Below are positions 34,386 through 64,000 of a stretch of 64,000 bases of DNA, one piece after another. Position 1 is the stretch's first letter; the number at the start of each line of letters is the position of its first letter. The stretch comes from Pecten maximus (Eukaryota), in contig NC_047015.1 of NCBI RefSeq assembly GCF_902652985.1, forward strand, positions 55,304,001-55,368,000. The letters run 5' to 3'. The position numbers and the translations under genes were made by a program. The notes under the pieces are model-generated. The model was not told the DNA's origin. It saw only the letters and a program-made list of their open reading frames with translations, and ran no database searches.

Positions 34386-37023
34386 ATGGCTTCAATGAGC
34401 GAGGATTTGAGCGCTGTGGTTCTGGACAATGGATCAGGGATGTGCAAGGCTGGATTCGCAGGGGACGACGCCCCTCGTAGTGTATTTCCGTCTATTGTCG
34501 GAAGGCCGAGACATCAGGTATGATTTCTCTCAAATCCCGAAATTGCATACAAACATGATTTGCTTTGAAATCCAATATTCTTCATATGAAGTCGTACTTT
34601 TAGTACATTGTAATTAAGTATCTACAGTAGAGATATCCCGTCTGTTAATTAGATGCACAAGAAAAGTTGTTGCTATTTTCCTTAAAAAAAAATTTATCAC
34701 ACAAAATATTTTCATTCTGTAGATTTTCACTTGTTTTCTCCGACGAAAGAAATTGTCACAGAAGCTAAAGCTTCCATTGTAACTGACAAAATCGTTTTAT
34801 TGATTTACGCGGTATATTTTCCCCTCCTTTTTGAGAAAATGTCGTTTGTCTGACCCTGCATTTTCTCGTTTCTCGTCAAATTTCTTTTCTCACGGAGATT
34901 TTATCTTTGTGTATGTTGTCTGTTTTACCAAATTTTTCTTCATTGTCGCATCTAACAAGCCAATATCTGAACACGCGCCGGCCTTTTTTGCCAAGTGTAA
35001 TGGACTATTGCTTATTCGTTTATTGTTGCCCGTGTTTTTTACAGTTGTGATAAATTGTACCAGTGTACTCGAATTTTATTCACATGCTCTTGTCAGCGTG
35101 CGCAGGTTCGTATTCAAGCCCAAAATCGTAACGAATGCAATCATAATGTGCAAGAAGTGCCTAGACCGCATGTGATGGAATAAGTACGGACGAACAGACA
35201 GATGGTTTGATTTATTTTGTTTAGCGTCCTATTAACAGCCAGGGTCATTTAAAGACGTGCCAGGTGTTGGAGGTGGAGGAACGCCGGAGTACCTGGAGAA
35301 AAACCTCCGACCTACGGTCAGTACCTGGCAACTGCCCCACATTAGGTTTCGAACTCGTAATCCAGAGGTGGAGGGCTAGAGATAACGTGTCGATACACCT
35401 TAACCACTCGGCCACCGCGGCGCCTCAGATGGACATGCGGCCATACAGACAGACACGACATAGCAGTCCTATATTAGCACACTGATCGTTTAATCCGGGC
35501 GTGGCTGATACCCGATATAACCATATCGATTTATATAGCATCCAAGGCAAAGCGATAACTTCTGGCATTGTGTTTCTCCGTAAGCTGTAGTATCATTCAT
35601 TGTAAGCTGAAGCTCTTTAACGACAAACATCACTCTAATTGCAATATCTCGGGGAAATTCACGGCAATCCACGGAAAACAACTTGATTTCCGAGGATTGC
35701 CGGAATCGCAACATTTCGGTAAAATTACCGGCAATCCTCCGATATCAACTTGATCTGCGAGTCGGATTGCCGGTTTCCCCGAGATGCTGCGATTGAAATT
35801 CACTCATCACCTATCGACAGATTCCGGACCTTATATAAAACAACGAAGGGTACGGGAATCAGTCGAGATTAGCCGAATGACCACAAAGTATTTAAGACGG
35901 TTCTCAGATTCCTGACGTTTGTATATTTCCGTATATTTTACTGGATTTGGGGTAGGGGATGGAGCAAATTTCAGGCAATTTAAAAATATAACTGTATTCT
36001 ATTCCTGGTGTGTTTCAGGGCGTCATGATCGGGATGGGCCAAAAGGACTCTTACGTCGGAGACGAGGCTCAGAGCAAAAGAGGCGTCCTCACTCTAAAGT
36101 ACCCTATAGAGCACGGAATCGTCACGAATTGGGACGACATGGAAAAAGTTTGGCACCACACTTTCTATAACGAACTCCGTGTGTCCCCAGATGAACACCC
36201 CATACTCATGACGGAAGCACCGTTAAATCCAAAAGCCAATCGCGAGAAGATGACGCAGATTATGTTCGAGACCTTCAACACACCGGCGTTTTACGTAGCC
36301 ATCCAGGCCGTGTTGTCCCTGTACGCCTCGGGACGCACCACAGGAATAGTGATGGATTCCGGGGACGGTGTAACTCATACCGTTCCCATATACGAAGGAT
36401 ACGCCTTGCCTCACGCCATCTTGAGGATTGACCTCGCAGGTAGGGACCTCACTGATTATTTGATGAAAATCATGACGGAGAGGGGATACTCCTTCACCAC
36501 AACGGCCGAAAGAGAAATAGTCCGAGACATCAAGGAGAAACTCTGCTACATAGCGCTCGATTTTGATGATGATATGGTGTCGTCTGCCACTTCTAAAGAT
36601 ATGGAAAAGACATATGAACTACCAGACGGACAGATCATCAGCATCGGTAACGAGAGGTTCCGGTGTCCAGAGGCGATGTTCCAACCTTCATTCATAGGTA
36701 TGGAAATGGCGGGAATGCACGAATCTACCTTCAATTCAATCCTAAAATGCGATGTGGACATCCGGAAAGATTTATACTCGAATATTGTATTATCTGGCGG
36801 TTCCACAATGTTCCCGGGTGTTGCGGATCGCATGAGTAAAGAGGTCGCGTCCTTGGCACCAGAACTCATCAAGGTGAAGGTCGTGGCGCCACCTGAGCGG
36901 AAGTACTCGGTTTGGATCGGAGGGTCGATCCTGGCGTCATTGTCGACATTTGAACAGATGTGGATAAGTCGACAAGAGTACAACGAGGCAGGGGCCGGCA
37001 TCATTCATAGAAAATGTTTTTAG
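34386..37023 (+). CDS. Divergent actin (378 aa)
   Basis: Exon 1 34386-34517 ([44 protein letters not shown]|GT) and exon 2 36019-37023 ([22 protein letters not shown]...IIHRKCF). The intron is at the conserved RHQ/GVM position and the frame is intact. AATAAA at about 37098. Confidence 0.95.
35206..35425 (-). mobile_element. V-domain SINE (same family as 16719 and 53061) in the actin intron
   Basis: Reverse complement of the 53061 copy; TSD CAGATGG at 35199-35205 and 35426-35432. Confidence 0.85.
35636..35796. mobile_element. Hairpin MITE in the actin intron
   Basis: ATTGCAATATCTCGGGGAAA ... TTTCCCCGAGATGCTGCGAT inverted ends, with internal CGGCAATCC/GGATTGCCG inverted pairs. Confidence 0.55.
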
Positions 37024-53000: not shown

Positions 53001-56000
53001 AATATGGATACATGTAGTCATGATCCAGAACCATGTTGGTCTGTGACACCAAGACACAGCAGGGGCCGCGGTGGCCGAGTGGTTAAGGTGTACCGACACT
53101 TTATCACTAGCCCTCCACCTCTGGGTTGCGAGTTGGAAACCTACGTGGGGCAGTTGCCAGGTACTGATCGTAGGCCGGTGGTTTTTCTCTGAGTACTCCG
53201 GCTTTCCTCCGGGGATCCACCTCCTAAAACTGGCACGTCCTTAAATGACCCTGGCTGTTAATAGGACGTTAAACAAAAACAAACCAAACCAAGACACAAC
53301 AGAGCAGCGTATTGAAATATAAAGGGGGAGATAACTCATTTTTTTGTGACGAAAAGAGAAAACAAAAATTTGTTGCATTATTTTTATTTTTATGGTAAGG
53401 TCAGGATTGTATTTTTGTTTTTACATAATCTAGTATTTATAAAAAGTATAATAATGTATTATTCAATTAACATATCTATATGGTAAACAATTTATGCAAT
53501 ACAATGTAGTTACTATATTATATAGTGTGTCAAAGTTCAAATGTTGTGTGTCTAGGCTTTAGTGTTATGAGACATTAAAAGAAAAATTATACATTTTTTT
53601 TGAGAATGAATAATACATATATAGATCCATTAAATAAACAGTCATGACAGATCCAGTATTCTTTTTCGTTCCTAATTTTAAGGTCAAAGGTTATAATTTA
53701 CTATCAGTTAGTTTTGATCAGAGGTACATGTGATTGTGCTTTTCTTTCTTTCAGATACAGTGAATCGTTATACGTGTACATGTATATCATATTCATATTT
53801 TTTTTATTTATTCTATTTTTCATACTTTCTATTAAAATTTGGATTCAAGGTCAAAGTGCCTTCAAGGTCAAAATGCCAAATCTTAACCTCAGTGTTAACG
53901 TTTCTGTTTGTAGGAATTGTGAATAGACTTCATGATTCTTAATAGGTGTGGTTTGCATTGTTGATATTCATGCATGATTAATTGTACATGTCATTTGTTA
54001 TATGTGTGGTTGTTATTGTTGTTTACTGTACAACAATAATACAAATAATTGTCTGGTCCAGAAGAACACATGTATACATGTGTGGTTCGTTTATATATAC
54101 TGGACTTGCTGCATTCTGAGGTAATTGTCAGTCTGCTTTGAACTATTGGTAATATACATATGTACACTTACTGCTAACAGGGAGATTCCTGGGCTTCGGA
54201 TCTGGCAGAAGGCCAAATATAGCCTATCTGAAGCATTCCTCACAGGTTTCATCTTCCTATCAAATCACAACAATTACATAAACATCTCCATCTTTTAGGG
54301 TCATGGCCATGTCACAGCCAAGGTCAGAGGTCAATTAGACAAGCTTTAAGTCAGATCCAAGTTTAAAGGTTATCCTGAATAGAGAAAAATAGTAGATCTA
54401 GAGTGCATGGATGTTTTCAATCAAAAGTGAAGGCTAGAGCCTTTGTATTTTTTGTCTGGGTCAAGGGTCAAAGATCAAATTAATCTCAGAACAAAGTATA
54501 TGATTTTTGTGATATCATTTATATATATATACTTCATATTTTTATTTTTACTTTGTTAACAAATAAAAAAAAATAAAATAAAAATATGGAGAAATGGTGA
54601 AAAAAAAAAAGTTGATAAGTAATTTGATTAATTTATTTGGACAACTATTCTTTTTAGTTTTTGTATGTTTATATACATGTATATATTGATTTGAAAACCG
54701 AAGAAAAAAATTCTTAAAAAAAAAACAAAAAAAATCATTATAGCAATTAATACCAATTTTAGTTCCACAAACCGACAAATATATCTTAAAGTGTGTCTAA
54801 TCAGTTAAGGTATATATCAATTATCTCTCAGATCTGGAATAGAAAGAAAATTTAAAATGGAATGTGTCTGTTAGCTTGTATGATTTTATTTGTGCATCAG
54901 CTGATCATGTATTGTTTTCACACCCACAGAAGGAAACGCTGTTCTTCCAGTTCGATGCCTCCTCTGTACCAGATGAGATGGCAGAGGTGATGAAATCAAT
55001 CAAGGAGGTGAGATCTTTAATTAAAGTTTCTCATTTAAATTGTCATGCAGTCACATTTTTATGCTCAAATCACTTCCCTAGTGGATAGTGTAAAAAAATT
55101 AGCATTCAAGTTTGGGGAGGACTCACTATTTTAAAATTTATGATTCTGCAAAAACAAGGAAGTGGGCATATAATTATGGACACAGACTTATTTGCAGGTA
55201 GATATAGTGATTTCAGTTTAAACACTTCCAGCTTTCTCACAAAAAGAAAAATTGAAAAATTATTTGTTCAGCATTTAATTTTTTTACAGGTTTATTACAA
55301 ATTTAGAAAAATGGACATGTAATATATTACTTAAATATATAAATACCAAGGCAGGAAACAAGTTTTAAATTTTTCTTTTTTGTTATATTATTTATAAAAT
55401 TATTGAATATTTTTGTTAGCAATATACAATGTATGGTGTTCTCCCAGCTGTCTGTCCTTTCATCTGCTCATCATACTTTGTCTGCACTTTGATTGATTTA
55501 GATACATTTCTCAGTCAACAAATTGTTTACATGATATCTGTAACATGAGAGTTCATTAATGCTATAGAGTTACATTGTGAGAGGGTTTGAAAGGGTAAAA
55601 ATTCCATCGAGGCTGGAAAATACATGTACCAATAAAGTGGTGCATTTATTTTTCAAGTATTTTCAAGTATGATATATTTTGTACTAATTTACATCTTGCT
55701 TGTGTGATAGATATAATACAAAAATAGAATTTGAAAGAATGAGTCAATTTTGTTTTTTTTCACAGTTGGCAGAAAGCATGTTGTTTCACTGGAAGACTTT
55801 TCCTATAATCCTGCCTTCGTCTATTACGGAAATAGTTGAGGAAACTGCTGTACCTTCTGCAGAAGGGGAAAAGGAGGAAAAAGAAAGCAAACATAGGGTA
55901 AATATTAGTCTGAGTTTCCTCTGACCCTGACACCATGTCTGGTGTAGGGCCAGAGTGCACTACTATATGAAAACGTGGAAATTCTCTGACACCAAACGGT

Positions 56001-59000
56001 GTCACTAAGATTTTGGTGCAAATCCAATGAAAATCACCTATCTCACATATATGGATAAAGGAGATATTTATTTACCCCCAAACACCCATTTAGTCCCGTA
56101 TAGGTGTTCTATTCTGCCCGTATAGACCCTCGCTTTACGATGATTAGGTAAATATATGCTCAAGATTTTAATTTAATTAAAGATTCTTTATCAGAAATTA
56201 ATCTAACTTCAATTTACACACATGTGGTAACTATAAAATTAATCATAAAGTATTTTTACTTGATATCAATGTAGATTGGTAACTCTGGAGAAACTCTTCA
56301 TTCAGATATGTATGACCTTGACCTACTTTCAAGGTCATAGGGGTCAGTTATATCAAAATCTTTAAAAGATTAATTTTAAATTACTGAGAGGCCCATGGTC
56401 ATAATATTGGGCCAGTATAGACTGCTGGAATGGAAAGCTATCAAGTTTCTTGAAATAAAAGACCTTGACCTACTTTTTAGTTACACAGAGATGTGATGTC
56501 ATATCATGTTAAATTCTCAAAACGTTAAATCACTGAGTGGATGAAGAGAGCTCAACCAATGTGAGACCTAAAGCCTTAAATCATTAATTAGTGCATCACA
56601 TGACAGAATACTGATTTCCTATTGGCTACAAAAATGGATATATGAGACGCCACTGCCCGCTCTTCTAGGCACTATCAAATATGATGTGAAATTAAATGTG
56701 TATCTAAAGTGACATCACTGTTGTAATTGATGCAGAAGGAAAAAATGGCAGACACCAACTGGCTCTCAGATAGTGAAATATTAAGTTGAATGTTGAAATT
56801 AGCAAAGTAAATGTATGTGTGGTGTACTTAAAAAAAATCAGTGCCTTCTCCAGTTCTACAATGCTATCCCTCGACAACACTGTCTGACCAAAGTGTCTTC
56901 TTCGGCTTGGGAACTGTGCCATCCCTCGAGAACACTGTCAAACCATGATGCCTTCTTTGGTTTGGGTAGCTCCTGTAAGCAAAAATTACTTAAATTTCAT
57001 GTGGGATTCATTTTGGAGTTAATACGTGATGAGAGTCTATCACAAATTCAAATCCTTCGCAAACATTAAAAATAACACCTTTTGGTGGCAGCCAAGTTAT
57101 CGGTAACCAATATATAGGAGTGTTACAAGTTATCGGTAACCGATATATAGGAGTGTTACAAGAAAGCAGGACTCTAATAGGTCATCATTTGCGAAATTGT
57201 AGTAATTTTATATTAATGCTTATGGAACCATGTATTCTGGAATATGTCTGAAGAAGGAAGTTCGCAAAAATAAAGTACAGAGGAGCCCACTTATTTGCAT
57301 ATCGGTTATTTGAATATCCCGCTTATTTGCATAAAATTCTCAGGTCCCGATTTTCTTCTTCTTTATCTTTGTATTTTAATCCCGTGTATTTGCATCGACT
57401 AAAACACCGACTACCGCTTATATGCATATAAAAATTCCAAAAAATCGAAAATTTTTAATTGACTTTAGGGTATTTTTGTGATTTTCTCGTAATAAAAGTT
57501 TTAAGAAAAGTGTCTTAACTTACATATTGATTCGACACGATGTACAACGTTATCTTATCATTGGTTCCCACTTCGTCAAAACAGGTTATGTTCGATGCAT
57601 CGATATCGACATTTAGTTATTATCCAGACCATATCAGTAGCATTGTGAAGAAGAATTACTGAATAAAATATTTATATGCCTCATCTTTTGATGAGATTTG
57701 TTTATTTATTATAGCATCGATCCAAACCTGTGTTCTGTGCACTTGAACACTCGCTGAGGCAGGTTGCGATCGCCATGATTGTTTACTAGGCGCGTTGCAT
57801 TGTGGGGGCATATGTGTAATGAACGACAACTCTTTGTGTGTGTGCGCCATTTTCCAAAACAAACCCAAACGACAATACACATCTCACGGTCATTTAAGAC
57901 AGTCTATTGCTTAAGCAGTTCATCATCTATGATCAAACAACTAATATACTCATAGCAGGAACAAAACGCATCTCGAGACGATAATGAATGTTAATTGAAA
58001 CCATCACATTGTACATCGTAGTGCCAACCCACGCGTGTATGACCGATATCGGACCCACAGACTCGGAGTGACAAGTAGTAAACGATGAAGTATATGCAAA
58101 TATTTGTACATTTACAAAGAATAACAACCCATTTATTTCGTATTTACTCTTATATTTTAAATAATGTTTTTTTAATTATATTTTTAATGCAAATAACGTA
58201 AACAATCATATAGCGCCCGTTTTGAGTACCTACCTGACGATCTACATAGTGTATAAGAGGGGCCAAAACCCAACTCCGCCTATACGAATACTCCGGTTAT
58301 TTGCATATTTTGTCATTGAAAAAGGGCTATGCAAATAAGCGGGTTGCTCTGTATTTGCGAAATCTAAATGATTTACAACATACCACCCCTCGACAACACT
58401 ATCAGACCGTCACCATATAGTACCCTTGAAATAAGGTACTGATATACAAAAAGAATTCCTGTTGACAAAGTTAATTACATTTACATTTACAGGGGAAGAT
58501 CAACTTTAATGACTTGTTCAAAGCGCCAACATTTGATGAACTAGACCAGGTGGCCATTAATTCGGCAGGCGTACTGAAGAAACTAACTGATAGACAGCTA
58601 CAAGATGTCTGGAATTATGGGTAATTTGTTAAACTTAGACAGCTACAAGATATCTGGAATTATGGGTAATTTGTTAAACTTAGACAGCAACAAGATGTCT
58701 GGAATTATGGGTAATTTGTTACTGCAATAGTGAATTATCTACATTGCATACTTAAATATTTTGTAAAAGCGATTCATTGGTTATTGTGGTTATAGGTATT
58801 ATAGCTTATTGCATTCATGCTGTCATGGTTGAAATTGTAACCAGAATTGTGGAACTTTGAAAGAAATAACATCAATTTATCAAAACATGTCTTCATATTG
58901 GAACAAAGTAAGTCAAAACTATTTATAGAAACCACTTGAGTACCAATACAAAATTGTTGCTGTGTGTAGTAGTTTTACAGAGATGTAATCTAGCTCTGGT

Positions 59001-62000
59001 ACCAGGTATTGAATATTAGTTCAAACGATTCATTGATCTGCTCAGTAATGATTTCATCTTTCAAGGAAAGACTAAACTGTGTAATCCTTGTAATCTTATA
59101 TACAATAATGTATATCAGGTTATTCTTGCAAAGGGTCATTTTTGTGATGTATCATTTTTTAGAAAATCATTGAAATGTATTGTTTGCAAATTTTGCTATT
59201 TTATTCATTGTAAATATTCTCATGAAGTGCACACTTTTTTCAAAATTTGACAAGTGAAAAAGTCCACTGCGCACTATACGCAGGTACAAGCCTTTGCCGT
59301 TCAGATGCATGAATGTGATGCGAAATTATTCATTCAAATTTTGCATTATCAGTGCTTGAGAAGTAATTTAAAAAAAAAAGAAGATAAAAATATTGACCTA
59401 AAATTACCATTGGTACATTTGTATGATGTCATAATATCATTGAATGATGTCATGACATAATCAACATCAAAATCCCTGGAAGAATCGATTAAGGGCTCCC
59501 TGAAGATTTTAGAAGCCTTTTTTTGACGATAGGTGTGGTACATGGTTTAAAATTGAAGTTTAAATGTTTACAGACAATTTGAGGTGGACAGTATCAACTT
59601 CCCTGGACAAGTACACAAGTGGAGACTGACCCGCCTGTTACAAAAAGGTTCCCTGACCGCACAGGACTCACTGCTGAATGTAGGTCTCTCACCAAGTCGT
59701 AGATCATCTAAGAATTTAAACATTACATGCCTTTAATATTACTTTAATCTGCCAGACAGAATAATGCAGGAAAATTTGTGTCTTTTGGCATAGTCCAGTG
59801 CTAACCTGTAAAAACTGAATTTGTACTGCTTTGTAGAATGTTTGTACCTGCCAGATCTGTCCAGTGTTGATTTCACCTCGAGTTAGCAGATTTTATCTTG
59901 TGTGGTAACGCTCACAGCCATAGTGAATTTTGCACCTGTTGCAGAAGGACTAAAATTAATTAAGCTTTAGCAAGGCAGGAAGAAGTAATGCAGGAATATA
60001 TTTACTTGGATCTTGGCTGAAAATTGAACTGTTTCCCTTTGTGTTTGTCTAAAACATATATTACTGCACTTATCCACCCCTGATAAGTGAAATATGTTAC
60101 CTTACTGACAATATAAGAACTTTGATGATTTATTTGTTTTCTGGGTTTATCGCCCACGTGAACAGCCAGGGTCTTTTCAAGGCAGAGTCTCCTTGTAGTA
60201 GTTGGTGACTACCTCACTGAACAACATACCAGATGCCTGTCGTATGCCATCCAGAGCAATTAGGGTAAAGTTTATTTCCTGAGGACACAATCACAGCAGC
60301 ACAGACCAGTCTGTTCCTCAGCTTTCTGAGAAACAATACTGACATTGGAATTCGAAGGGAGTGGCGAACCTGGCACCTCGCACCTTAGATCTTCACCAGA
60401 GGTTACGTGGATGAGCTCTAACCAACTGAGCTTCCACGGATAACTTGTTTAGATAGCAAAATTTTGTTTACTGACGACAAGAAGGATTCAGTCAATTGGT
60501 CAAATATAATAATGTGTGCTTACTGTTATAATTTTGCGACAAAAGAAAACGTGCCGGATCGCAGGATGTCAGTACAGTTATATAAATTTTCAGTATTTCT
60601 ATGTTTCAGGATATGGCTTTAGTGTTGCGGCTGCTGATCATCACCGCCCGTAACAGATTTGTCTCGCACTTCTTCAGTGTGTCCAACTCTTTCAGGGGTC
60701 TAGGTTTAGGCTTTATGAAGATCTTAGGTAGGTTCCCAAGTGTTAGATAGTAGACCCTTCCAGGGTTTTCTCGGACTCTCCAAATCCTTCATTTTGACCC
60801 CTTAATTTGAAAAACTCCCAAAATTGATAAAATCATTTAGGATTTGAGTCCATGAAAACCCTGAATTGCATAAATTATTTATTATGATGCAATATTTTGT
60901 TCAAAGTTTTAGAATGGAATTTTGAATAGCTGTCATCAGGGTGGATATTGGGAAAGTTTTCATGTGACAAATAGATTACTGGATTTTGTGTCCTTGCATG
61001 AAAAAAAAAATGACTTCATTCGGAACTAGATTATCTAAAACCCAAATATATTTATACACAGGAAGGTTCAGGTGGTTCTATGATTGTGATTTGATAAAAA
61101 ACCAGTATGAAAGTTCATAAAATAATTTAAGACCTTAAAAAGTGTTACAGTATGATGTTATACATTCCTACTTCAGGCCATGATAATAAAGTATGTTTAT
61201 AAAGAATTTGACACTATCTGGTCAGTGTGATAATAATAATTCCAAAAAAATTTAAGACATTACTGACAATATTTCATATAATATGGTTAGAAGTAACCGT
61301 ATGTGTGTCAGCGAAAATCATTTAGAAGAACAAAAAGGATTCAGATTACAGAATTTCTACATTAACCCATATAATTACACTTAATTATAATTATAATTCC
61401 TCGTTTTAGATAAATTACACTAAAGATTGTACATGTTCCTCGTTTTAGATATAAATTACACAAGAGATTTGTACATGTTCCTCGTTTTAGAAAAATTACA
61501 CAAGAGATTTGTACATGCTCCTCCTTTTAGATAAATTACACTAGAGATTTGTACATGCTCCCTGTTTTAGATAAATTACACTAGAGATTTGTACATGTTC
61601 CTCGTTTTAGATAAATTACACTAGAGATTTGTACATGTTCCTCGTTTTAGATAAATTACACTAGAGATTTGTACATGTTCCTCGTTTTAGATAAATTACA
61701 CTAGAGATTTGTACATGCTCCTCGTTTTAGATCAATTACACTAGAGATTTGTACATGTTCCTCGTTTTAGAAAAATTACACAAGAGATTTGTACATGCTC
61801 CTCCTTTTAGATAAATTACACTAGAGATTTGTACATGCTCCCTGTTTTAGATAAATTACACTAGAGATTTGTACATGTTCCTCGTTTTAGATAAATTACA
61901 CTAGAGATTTGTACATGTTCCTCGTTTTAGATAAATTACACTAGAGATTTGTACATGTTCCTCGTTTTAGATAAATTACACTAGAGATTTGTACATGCTC

Positions 62001-62188
62001 CTCGTTTTAGATCAATTACACAAGAGATTTGTACATGCTCCTCGTTTTAGATAAATTACACAAGAGATTTGTACGTGCTTCTCGTTTTAGATATCCTGAT
62101 TGGCGTTCCCTCCACAACCTCCGGTGACCTAGATGGTAAGATCCAAGACGAACACATGAGGTACTTGGTGGCAGAACTGGACATCAAG
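50055..62188 (+). CDS. Uncharacterised protein, N-terminal 236 aa; the gene continues beyond the window
   Basis: Seven phase-consistent GT-AG exons: 50055-50102, 54930-55007, 55766-55897, 58493-58620, 59574-59679, 60610-60727, 62091-62188. They give a stop-free MTEMMEDLTLKEMDPE-KETLFFQF...LAESMLFHWKTFPIILP...APTFDELDQVA...FEVDSINFPGQVHKWRL...IITARNRFVSHFFSVS...DILIGVPS...YLVAELDIK. Family not identified with confidence. Confidence 0.85.
50367..51603. repeat. 103-bp satellite array, 12 copies, intronic
   Basis: Period 103 (GAGGCC at 50461, 50564, ...). Inner copies are nearly identical and the edge copies more diverged. Confidence 0.95.
53061..53290 (+). mobile_element. Full-length V-domain SINE
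   Basis: GGGGCCGCGGTGGCCGAGTGGTTAAGG head, V-domain, CAAA tail; TSD ACCAAGACACA at 53048-53058 and 53288-53298. Confidence 0.9.
57093..57162. repeat. 33-bp tandem duplication
   Basis: CAAGTTATCGGTAACCRATATATAGGAGTGTTA, two copies. Confidence 0.8.
57278..58351. mobile_element. pogo/Tigger-type non-autonomous DNA transposon (~1.07 kb)
   Basis: TIRs CAGAGGAGCCCACTTATTTGCATA and TATGCAAATAAGCGGGTTGCTCTG, each flanked by TA; no transposase ORF. Confidence 0.85.
58591..58720 (+). repeat. 45-bp triple repeat spanning an exon end and its 5' splice site
   Basis: TAGACAGCTACAAGATGTCTGGAATTATGG|GTAATTTGTTAAACT at 58591, 58636 and 58681. Confidence 0.9.
60130..60438 (-). mobile_element. Near full-length tRNA-derived CORE-type SINE
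   Basis: Minus-strand head AGCTCAGTTGGTTAGAG (A box) and GGTTCGCCACTCC (B-box-like), a CORE-like GTGTCCTCAGGAAATAAACTTTACCC and a tail ending GACCCTGGCTGTTCACGTGGGCGATAAACCC. Confidence 0.75.
61397..62092 (+). repeat. 40-bp minisatellite made of repeated 3' splice acceptors, with a 280-bp higher-order repeat
   Basis: Unit ATAAATTACACTAGAGATTTGTACATGTTCCTCGTTTTAG; 18 TTTTAG ends from 61409 to 62090, the last being the acceptor of exon 62091-62188. Confidence 0.95.
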
Positions 62189-62715
62189 GTATAAACTTTT
62201 AATTACACAATTATCTCCCTTTGCATGATTTAAAAATAAAAATCATTTGAGAAGAACAAATTTTTCAATATTTTACTTGTTTATGTAAAATACAGAACAA
62301 TTAAATTTCAAATGTAAGATTTTTTTGTTTATTTGGTCATCTTTTTTTTTAAGTGTCGTATTTCTGTTTTTTTCAGCCTCATTGCAAGAAAGATTTTCAG
62401 ACATTTTGTACCTATGTAAAGGAAAAATGTGAACAGCTACAAGCTGACAGCTCAAAGGTCTGTATTTATAGTTGTCATGTATTAGTGTGAATGCACTGAC
62501 AGTCTGATACATGCGTCTATTTTTGTGTTCTGTCCGTCCGTCCTTCTGTCTGTCCTTCAGCTAACTTGTCCAAGCTTTATCTTACACACTACTTGTCACT
62601 AGAGCTTCATACTTGGAGGTATGGGTTCACCAGATTCTTTTATTACCGTACATTCTTGGTATATAATTTAACAACCGATGAGAGACCTTCCTTTGCTGAA
62701 TTGTTGTGTTTGTTT

Positions 62716-64000
62716 TTAGGTCATCTGACCCGAAGGGTCAGGATGACCTATAGTCATCATGCTTCGTCCGTCGTCGTGCGCCGTGCGCCGTCCGCCGTGC
62801 GTAAACTTTTCACATTTCAATCTTCTTCTCAAGTTCCACCAGTGGGATTAAGCTGAAACTTGCCTGAAATGATCCTGAGATGGTCCTGACCAAGTGTTGT
62901 TATTTTTCGGGTCAGTCCGAAATCCAAGATGGCCGCCATAGCCGCCATTTTGAAAAACACATTTTAAACTTCTTCTCAAGTTCCACTGGTGCCATTGAGC
63001 TGAAACTTGCCTGAAATAATCCTGAGATGATCCCGACCAAGTGTTGTTATTTTTCGGGTCGGTCCGAAATCCAAGATGGCCGCCATAGCCGCCATCTTGA
63101 AAAACACATTTTAAACTTCTTCTCAAGTTCCACTGGTGCCATTGAGCTGAAACTTGCCTGAAATGATCCTGAGATGATCCCGACCAAGTGTTGTTATTTT
63201 TCGGGTCGGTCCGAAATCCAAGATGGCCGCCATAGCCGCCATCTTGAAAAACACATTTTAAACTTCTTCTCAAGTTCCACTGGTGCCATTGAGCTGAAAC
63301 TTGCCTGAAATGATCCTGAGATGATCCCGACCAAGTGTTGTTATTTTTCGGGTCGGTCCGAAATCCAAGATGGCCGCCATAGCCGCCATCTTGAAAAACA
63401 CATTTTAAACTTCTTCTCAAGTTCCACTGGTGCCATTGAGCTGAAACTTGCCTGAAATGATCCCGACCAAGTGTTGTTATTTTTCGGGTCGGTCCGAAAT
63501 CCAAGATGGCCGCCATAGCCGCCATCTTGAAAAACACATTTTAAACTTCTTCTCAAGTTCCACTGGTGCCATTGAGCTGAAACTTGCCAGAAATGATCCT
63601 GAGATGATCCCCACCAAGTGTTGTTATTTTTCGGGCCAATTCGAAATCCAAGATGGCAGCCATAGCCGCCATCTTGAAAAACACATTTTAAACTTCTTCC
63701 CAAGTTCCACCAGTGCTATTGAGCTAAAAATTGCCTGAAATGATCCTGAGATGGTCCTGACCAAGTGTTGTTATTTTTCGGGTCGGTCCGAAATCCAAGA
63801 TGGCCGCCATAGCCGCCATCTTGAAAAACACATTTTAAACTTCTTCTCAAGTTCCACTGGTGCCATTGAGCTGAAACTTGCCTGAAATGATCCTGAGATG
63901 ATCCCGACCAAGTGTTGTTATTTTTCGGGTCGGTCCGAAATCCAAGATGGCCGCCATAGCCGCCATCTTGAAAAACACATTTTAAACTTCTTCTCAAGTT
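62716..64000 (+). mobile_element. Non-autonomous Helentron (HINE) with a 147-bp tandem array, running off the window
   Basis: 5' hairpin TTAGGTCATCTGACCCGAAGGGTCAGGATGACCTA and a (CGTC/CGTG)n microsatellite. Units start at 62822, 62969, 63116, 63263, 63410, 63546 (preceding unit 11 bp short), 63693, 63840 and 63987. Confidence 0.9.

What the first reader, a model, noticed from the sequence alone, without database searches (positions are those of the whole stretch)
61397..62092. An 18-fold tandem array of 3' splice acceptors in front of a coding exon
Seen: the 40-bp unit ends in pyrimidine tract + TTTTAG|AT, the same junction as the real acceptor at 62090/62091, so 17 near-identical decoys precede it. 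Entering most decoys reads G|AT AAA TTA CAC TAG (stop). Only the last unit has the variant GTACGTGCTTCTCG. Variants repeat as a 7-unit, 280-bp higher-order block (61491-61770 and 61771-62050). Each unit also splits into 20 nt + GT...AG 20 nt. With the donor triplication at 58591, this one gene has both kinds of splice site amplified. Inference: a natural test of exon definition, and possibly a VNTR-tuned splicing/NMD rheostat or a mutational process that targets exon-intron junctions.
Basis: partly seen in the sequence, partly recalled or inferred. Interest (0 to 1): 0.7.

Follow-up and report, generated by a model that had tools for sequence, protein, structure and literature searches.

The report
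Repeated splice acceptor in scallop gene
The last 40 bases of an intron in a scallop gene, splice signal included, are repeated about 18 times in a row; only the last copy keeps the protein intact and is likely the one used, so this is likely a harmless repeat of a kind already described in lancelets and common in this genome.

Summary
61397-62093 is a locus-unique 40-bp minisatellite ending at the exon-7 acceptor of a scallop Lips-family gene (PF25228). It has 18 TTTTAG ends and one 280-bp internal duplication. All 17 upstream AGs give premature stops. Ten score above the real site; only the real site is followed by exon-like sequence, so exon definition likely picks it. The RefSeq model uses 62091 and five relatives have no insertion there; no RNA joint at this acceptor was seen directly, and copy-number variation is untested. 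This is a known kind: amphioxus 'mirages', human F7 VNTR. The scan noted similar arrays before, in this and other genomes. In a sample of kinesin and kinase exons, 9 of 337 acceptors and 31 of 328 donors carry such arrays, so a 24-exon stretch has both kinds about 42% of the time. Acceptor arrays are not enriched (1.1x, CI 0.4-2.0). Donor arrays are (3.6x GC-matched, CI 2.4-5.0). That asymmetry, not this array, is the lead worth following. A splicing or NMD rheostat has no support here.

The parts
61397..62093 (+). 40-bp minisatellite built from the 3' end of intron 6 (possible branch A, pyrimidine tract, AG) plus at most 3 exon bases; 17 upstream AGs and the real acceptor
   Evidence: core motif found 16 times in the genome, all inside this array
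61370..61409 (+). degenerate first unit (unit 0), middle replaced by AT-rich sequence
   Evidence: 25 of 40 identical to the commonest unit, in register
61491..62050 (+). one 280-bp (7-unit) internal duplication, likely a single unequal exchange
   Evidence: 2 mismatches in 280; permutation p=0.001; unit 9 looks like a hybrid of units 16 and 2 except at one base
62051..62090 (+). last unit, holding the acceptor that keeps the frame; two private changes
   Evidence: 6.3 bits in an acceptor model trained on other genes
62091..62188 (+). coding exon 7 of the Lips-family gene (98 nt)
   Evidence: exact spliced match to P0001; Pfam PF25228
60610..60727 (+). coding exon 6; its donor 60727/60728 opens the 1363-nt intron that holds the array
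   Evidence: joint 59679 to 60610 in 3 of 4 RNA-like runs
58591..58721 (+). 45-bp triplication of the exon-4 end plus donor; second and third donors give an in-frame stop
   Evidence: first donor (58620) joined to 59574 in 4 of 4 RNA-like runs
50055..62457 (+). first 8 coding exons of a Lips-family gene (P0001, 1112 aa; continues past the window)

Best explanation
The last 40 bases of intron 6 of a scallop Lips-family gene are repeated in tandem about 18 times, likely through a local duplication amplified by slippage and unequal exchange, and the array is likely neutral clutter that splicing skips because only the last AG is followed by exon sequence. Shown: the array is unique to this locus; it has divergent end units and one 280-bp internal duplication; only the last AG keeps the frame; the decoys match the real site in acceptor score and predicted accessibility but are followed by intron-like sequence. 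Inferred: exon definition (exonic enhancers plus the donor at 62188) selects 62091; any rare decoy use would give a premature stop and would be removed by NMD; the array persists because a duplication that leaves the last copy intact costs little.
For: Locus-unique: 1 match by DNA search; 16 pattern hits, all in the array, 0 in the reversed control. Only 62091 gives an open frame. The RefSeq model maps exactly through 60727/62091, and 5 of 5 related proteins, one from a 3490-base Logan contig, have no insertion at that point. Real site 6.3 bits, 10 of 17 decoys higher, and an AG outside the array (61176) scores 8.7. The next 40 nt score +0.65 for exon-like 5-mers after the real AG and -0.06 to -0.51 after the 17 decoys. 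Such arrays are common here: 9 of 337 sampled acceptors against 8.4 expected GC-matched, including one with 15 identical 13.1-bit copies. Run X7 holds one 3631-nt contig across exons 3-5 without a break, a length that fits the whole mRNA. Amphioxus mirages are reported not to disturb splicing (PMC3087553, PMC3902484; passages).
Against: The joint from 60727 to the acceptor was not seen directly in RNA: one search covered only 54500-61448, showed 15 of 21 joints and a small part of the pieces, and contigs drop rare variants; NMD would also hide decoy use. Exon length alone cannot exclude the nearest decoys: 138- and 178-nt exons are ordinary (62% and 37% of 320 sampled exons are as long or longer). 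4 of 22 true exons of this gene also score below zero on the exon-likeness measure, so it is a weak predictor. The decoys are transcribed first, and a paper read here calls scanning widely accepted for 3' site choice (PMC1557585, discussion).
Confidence: 0.8

Rival explanations
1. Leaky but unregulated: the nearest decoys (62051, 62011) take a real share of splicing, NMD removes those transcripts, and the gene pays a small cost in expression.
For: Decoys score as well as the real, rather weak site (4th lowest of 23 in the gene); decoy exons of 138 or 178 nt are normal sizes; all decoy stops lie at least 61 nt before a junction.
Against: No joint to the first decoy among the rows shown (weak: 6 joints hidden, contigs only). 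Reported mirages give no aberrant mRNA (PMC3902484 passage).
Confidence: 0.11
2. Selected VNTR rheostat: copy number tunes the share of productive splicing and so the dose of the protein.
For: Tandem repeats that shift splicing are known in human: ABCA7 VNTR (PMC5954066, search listing only) and 9537 spl-TRs (PMC10078293, passages). The 280-bp duplication shows the array has changed length recently.
Against: Acceptor arrays occur at about the background rate, so no selection is needed to explain one. Nothing in the array looks tuned: no in-frame product, ragged end units. Length variation and expression were not measured.
Confidence: 0.05
3. Recursive or stepwise splicing through the array, using the AG ends or the 20-nt GT...AG halves.
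For: Each unit holds a GT and ends in AG.
Against: AG is followed by AT or AA, so no donor is regenerated; the internal GT scores at most 2.2 bits; 20 nt is below the minimum size of a spliceosomal intron and a 1.4-kb intron needs no stepwise removal (own knowledge).
Confidence: 0.02
4. Part of the array, the 280-bp duplication, is an assembly artefact.
For: Six consecutive units are letter-identical at lag 7.
Against: Two differences and a hybrid-like unit at the seam fit a real unequal exchange. A contig of run X6, another sample, runs from one unit back into the next, so a multi-unit array exists outside the assembly; its length there is unknown.
Confidence: 0.07

Closest known systems
Amphioxus 'mirage' minisatellites: globin BflGb6 (acceptor side), BflGb9, Adh3, troponin C, PGBD5 (PMC3087553, PMC3902484; passages read)
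   Same: Tandem copies of an intron-exon boundary with intact splice signals; unit size inside the reported 10-160 bp; end units left out of homogenisation; normal protein apparently kept.
   Different: Here the unit holds at most 3 exon bases, whereas BflGb6 carries a real piece of exon 2; more copies (18 against 3-6 in BflGb6); mollusc; length polymorphism and splicing not directly shown here.
Human F7 intron-7 37-bp VNTR (PMC1557585; abstract and discussion read)
   Same: Identical, functional-looking pseudo-sites next to the true site; the copy next to the exon is used. The 45-bp donor triplication at 58591 is the same arrangement, and its first donor is the one in RNA contigs.
   Different: F7 is a donor array, where the true site is transcribed first; in this acceptor array 17 decoys are transcribed before the true site.
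Splicing-associated tandem repeats in human: ABCA7 intronic VNTR (PMC5954066, listing only), spl-TR catalogue (PMC10078293, passages), repeats at exon-intron boundaries of duplicated genes (PMC2812944, passages)
   Same: A repeat at or near a splice site that could in principle shift splicing with length.
   Different: Those have measured length-splicing links or alternative transcripts; none is shown here.

Membership tests
Mirage-type splice-junction minisatellite | Head-to-tail minisatellite-like copies, unit about 10-160 bp | tested here: met
   40 bp x 17.4, 93%
Mirage-type splice-junction minisatellite | Unit derived from the gene's own splice boundary, not a dispersed repeat | tested here: met
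   Array ends at the real acceptor; core found nowhere else in 918 Mb
Mirage-type splice-junction minisatellite | Unit includes exon sequence as well as intron | tested here: inconclusive
   Only 2-3 exon bases are shared (array ends at 62093); with unit 0 the phase could end exactly at the AG. Sampled acceptor arrays carry 2-61 exon bases.
Mirage-type splice-junction minisatellite | Many copies keep intact splice signals | tested here: met
   17 of 17 keep TTTTAG and score 5.3-7.6 bits against 6.3 for the real site
Mirage-type splice-junction minisatellite | Normal splicing is not disturbed | tested here: inconclusive
   Indirect only: RefSeq model, related proteins, one long RNA-like contig; the joint at 62091 was not seen
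Mirage-type splice-junction minisatellite | Length instability among haplotypes | not tested
   No DNA run was laid over the array; the internal duplication is only a sign of past change
Mirage-type splice-junction minisatellite | Boundary units excluded from homogenisation | tested here: met
   Units 0, 1, 2 and 17 are each private; inner types repeat
Splicing-regulatory VNTR (ABCA7 or spl-TR type) | Repeat length correlates with splicing or expression among individuals | not testable with these tools
   Needs matched genotype and RNA
Recursive splice sites | AG directly followed by a GT that regenerates a donor (definition recalled) | tested here: not met
   All 18 AGs are followed by AT or AA

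The most novel reading that the evidence does not exclude
In this scallop genome the birth or survival of minisatellites follows the direction of transcription. About 1 in 10 splice donors seeds an array (3.6x the GC-matched background), more arrays start just inside intron 5' ends, and acceptors sit at background. Either a transcription- or splicing-coupled process duplicates DNA at intron starts, or both junctions are hit and most acceptor arrays are purged because their decoys are transcribed before the true site. Surviving acceptor arrays like this one would then form a large natural panel for reading the rules of 3' splice-site choice.
Probability: 0.35. Interest if true: 0.55.

Novelty: new member of a known kind. 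Interest (0 to 1): 0.22.

Why it matters
The array itself matters little: it is one of roughly 3 in 100 sampled acceptors in this genome with such a repeat, in a gene of unknown function, and the kind is in print. It is still a clean test piece for exon definition, since 17 equal-strength acceptors with almost no exon sequence precede the true one. My searches found no report of this asymmetry, but they cover only open-licence PMC papers and bioRxiv. If it holds on the full annotation it would point to a link between transcription or splicing and where minisatellites arise or survive.

Tried and rejected
RNA: the run search listed no holder on record as RNA; this says nothing either way. The four runs laid (X6, X7, X12, X13, of 24 listed) are contigs guessed to be RNA, laid on 54500-61448 only. 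In X12 a 456-nt contig goes on for 77 letters past exon 6; their identity was not shown. Contig depth over the first unit in X6 (15.4 against 2-3.7 on intron contigs) is no copy number and is not used as one. Rejected: stronger splice score of the last unit; RNA structure hiding the decoys (real AG no more accessible, 0.036 against 0.033-0.275); exon size as the sole rule; origin from a dispersed repeat; 20-nt mini-introns and recursive sites. Acceptor enrichment depends on the control: 0.93x against shifted intron positions, odds ratio 1.4 against pseudo-acceptors (p=0.39), 1.5-2.8x against flat baselines (p=0.13 to 0.0035), 1.1-1.8x GC-matched with all three intervals spanning 1; I treat it as not shown. 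A first exon-mapping script failed and was replaced; residues 848-1112 of P0001 were not found in the next 60 kb. The protein atlas gave no usable hit, so the gene's function is left at the Pfam name. The original Adh3 mirage paper (PMC117041) is not held; I know it only as cited in PMC3087553. No supplements were read; those of PMC3087553 show mirage alignments and could sharpen the comparison. The in vitro work on duplicated splice sites and adjacent exon sequence (Reed and Maniatis 1986) is recalled, not read. Look-ups of earlier notes near this place and for a donor/acceptor asymmetry returned nothing.

Full report
Observation. The array is there as described. TRF gives period 40, 17.4 copies, 93% matches at 61397-62093. 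Eighteen TTTTAG ends run from 61409 to 62090; 16 are followed by AT, 2 by AA. Unit types read ABCDEEEFGCDEEEFHI, so units 3-9 and 10-16 form a 280-bp duplication with 2 mismatches (permutation p=0.001). Unit 9 matches unit 16 at its start and unit 2 at its end, apart from one base, which fits one unequal exchange that took the array from about 11 to 18 units (inference). A degenerate unit lies in register at 61370-61409 (25 of 40). The core motif occurs 16 times in the 918-Mb genome, all in this array, and 0 times in the reversed control, so the array arose here.

The gene. Each of four exons around the array hits Pfam PF25228 'Lips'. The exon search returned a 100% identical 1112-aa RefSeq protein named for Pecten maximus, P0001. 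Its first 847 residues map letter for letter onto 24 exons with GT-AG introns, among them 60610-60727 and 62091-62188. Five related proteins from other scallops, 76-93% identical, have no insertion at this junction. Four RNA-like contig sets laid on 54500-61448 show the joints of exons 2-3 (2 of 4 runs), 3-4 (2 of 4), 4-5 (4 of 4) and 5-6 (3 of 4). The 4-5 joint uses the first of the three repeated donors at 58591-58721; the other two would give an in-frame stop. One 3631-nt contig of run X7 crosses exons 3-5 unbroken and is long enough for the whole 3339-nt reading frame. The joint from exon 6 to the acceptor lay outside the stretch examined and was not seen.

What the decoys would do. All 17 give a premature stop, 12 of them after four codons, and every stop lies at least 61 nt before the next junction, so each product would be an NMD target by the usual rule (rule from own knowledge). 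I trained splice-site weight matrices on kinesin and kinase exons of the same genome, leaving this gene out; on this gene the calling method placed 19 of 21 acceptors and 21 of 21 donors exactly. The real acceptor scores 6.3 bits, 4th lowest of the gene's 23; ten of the 17 decoys score higher, and an AG outside the array at 61176 scores 8.7. The private variant of the last unit therefore does not make it stronger, and pseudo-acceptors of this quality exist without any array. Predicted accessibility does not favour the real site either. What differs is the sequence after the AG: +0.65 in exon-versus-intron 5-mer log-odds for the real site, -0.06 to -0.51 for the decoys; 4 of 22 true exons of the gene also score below zero, so this is suggestive only. 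Exon size does not exclude the nearest decoys. The GT inside each unit scores at most 2.2 bits, below all 24 mapped donors, and no AG is followed by GT, which rules against mini-introns and recursive sites.

How common is this? Pfam searches of the genome gave 134 kinesin and 136 kinase matches. I used 126 and 92 of them: I dropped 8 kinesin matches on small contigs as likely duplicates, and 44 kinase matches, mostly long single-exon ones and near-identical neighbours. In 136 fetched loci (1.17 Mb) tblastn raised this to 368 candidate exons; after removing exon fragments that lay wholly inside arrays, 337 acceptors and 328 donors remained. Tandem repeats cover about 21% of these loci. Nine of 337 acceptors lie in the last unit of an array and 31 of 328 donors in the first unit of one (Fisher p=0.0002 between the two). 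Against intronic positions matched for GC, 8.4 and 8.7 are expected: ratio 1.08 for acceptors (locus bootstrap 0.41-1.96) and 3.56 for donors (2.40-4.97); with stricter array filters donors give 4.5 and 6.2, acceptors 1.6 and 1.8 with intervals spanning 1. The donor excess holds in each family (17 of 164, 14 of 164), in the Pfam-anchored exons alone (20 of 209 against 7 of 218 acceptors) and against pseudo-donor motifs (72 of 2247, p=2e-6; antisense 62 of 1819). A further 22 arrays start 1-60 bases after a donor, most without junction sequence, against 9 that end 1-60 bases before an acceptor. Flat baselines give acceptors 1.5-2.8x, some with p below 0.05, so a mild acceptor excess is not excluded. 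Limits: two gene families, predicted sites, unannotated exons in the background, one genome. At the sampled rates a 24-exon stretch has at least one array of each kind 42% of the time, and 4 of 136 loci do. Other acceptor arrays match or exceed this one: L125 has 15 identical 13.1-bit copies, L126 has 13 strong copies, and L048, in the kinesin gene just before the window, has at least 21 copies.

Mechanism. Best reading (0.8): a 40-bp duplication of the intron end, amplified by slippage and unequal exchange, tolerated because the last copy keeps the exon intact and is chosen through exon definition, with NMD as a backstop. The anatomy and the background rate are shown; the choice of site and the neutrality are inferred. 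Rivals: an unregulated leak to the nearest decoys (0.11), partial assembly artefact (0.07), a selected rheostat (0.05), stepwise splicing (0.02).

Comparison with known cases. Earlier notes of this scan pointed me to the name and the papers, which I then checked. Ebner et al. [quoted passage not shown] PMC3902484 (passage) adds PGBD5 and troponin C. The human F7 VNTR (PMC1557585, abstract and discussion) is the donor-side case tested by mutation. This array works like a mirage and meets the features I could test, except that its exon part is only 2-3 bases (inconclusive); splicing outcome is indirect and length variation untested. Human repeats that do shift splicing exist (PMC10078293, passages; PMC2812944, passages; PMC5954066, listing), so the rheostat idea is not impossible, only unsupported. 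The scan has noted at least four other junction arrays in this genome and eight in other genomes; these are unchecked notes, and my own sample, not they, carries the frequency claim. One of them read the arrays as mere background; my test agrees for acceptors and disagrees for donors.

Verdict. Real, correctly described, and ordinary: a new member of a known kind.

Noticed in passing
L048-L187 (kinesin and kinase loci of G000): Minisatellites start at or just after splice donors far more often than background (31 of 328 donors in a first unit, 3.6x GC-matched; 22 more arrays start within 60 bases after a donor), while acceptors are at background (9 of 337).
   Followed up: partly
L126:4153-5783 in gene orientation (G000:C12, exon near 28894309-28894635, minus strand): One kinase exon is flanked by an acceptor array (51 bp x 13.6) and a donor array (45 bp x 14.1) at once; L072, L125 and L132 also carry both kinds.
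   Followed up: no
L125 (G000:C11 near 33327116) and L050 (G000:C10 near 5199005): Very long donor arrays: 44 bp x 84 (3.7 kb) and 49 bp x 54 (2.6 kb, 46 exact junction copies).
   Followed up: no
L048:1-1049 (G000:C1:55295223-55296272, about 8 kb before the window): The neighbouring kinesin gene has its own acceptor array, 49 bp x at least 21.5, 98% alike, with exon sequence in the unit.
   Followed up: partly
L002:7404-7571, L003:2952-3166, L003:5173-5226, L003:7785-8058; window 50367-51604: Other introns of the same Lips gene hold arrays close to, but not over, splice sites (24 bp x 7 starting 13 bases after a donor; 17 bp x 3.2 ending about 20 bases before an acceptor; 103 bp x 12 in the first coding intron).
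   Followed up: no
window 62811-64000, continuing into L002:1-2949; again at L004:2307-3230 and L005:3852-5217: 147-bp and 155-bp arrays that recur at several places; by recall they resemble the internal tandem repeats of bivalve Helitron-like elements (not tested).
   Followed up: no
beyond L003:7603: Residues 848-1112 of P0001 have no match in the next 42 kb fetched, and the Argopecten model P0002 turns into repeat-derived sequence at the same point: likely a very long, repeat-rich intron.
   Followed up: no
window 36019-36873 (+), 45621-47230 (-), 830-7884 (+): Other genes: an actin-family reading frame with a long uninterrupted stretch (PF00022), a ribosomal S5-family gene (PF00333, PF03719; likely rpS2 by recall), and predicted exons that likely form the 3' part of the kinesin gene that begins before the window.
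   Followed up: partly
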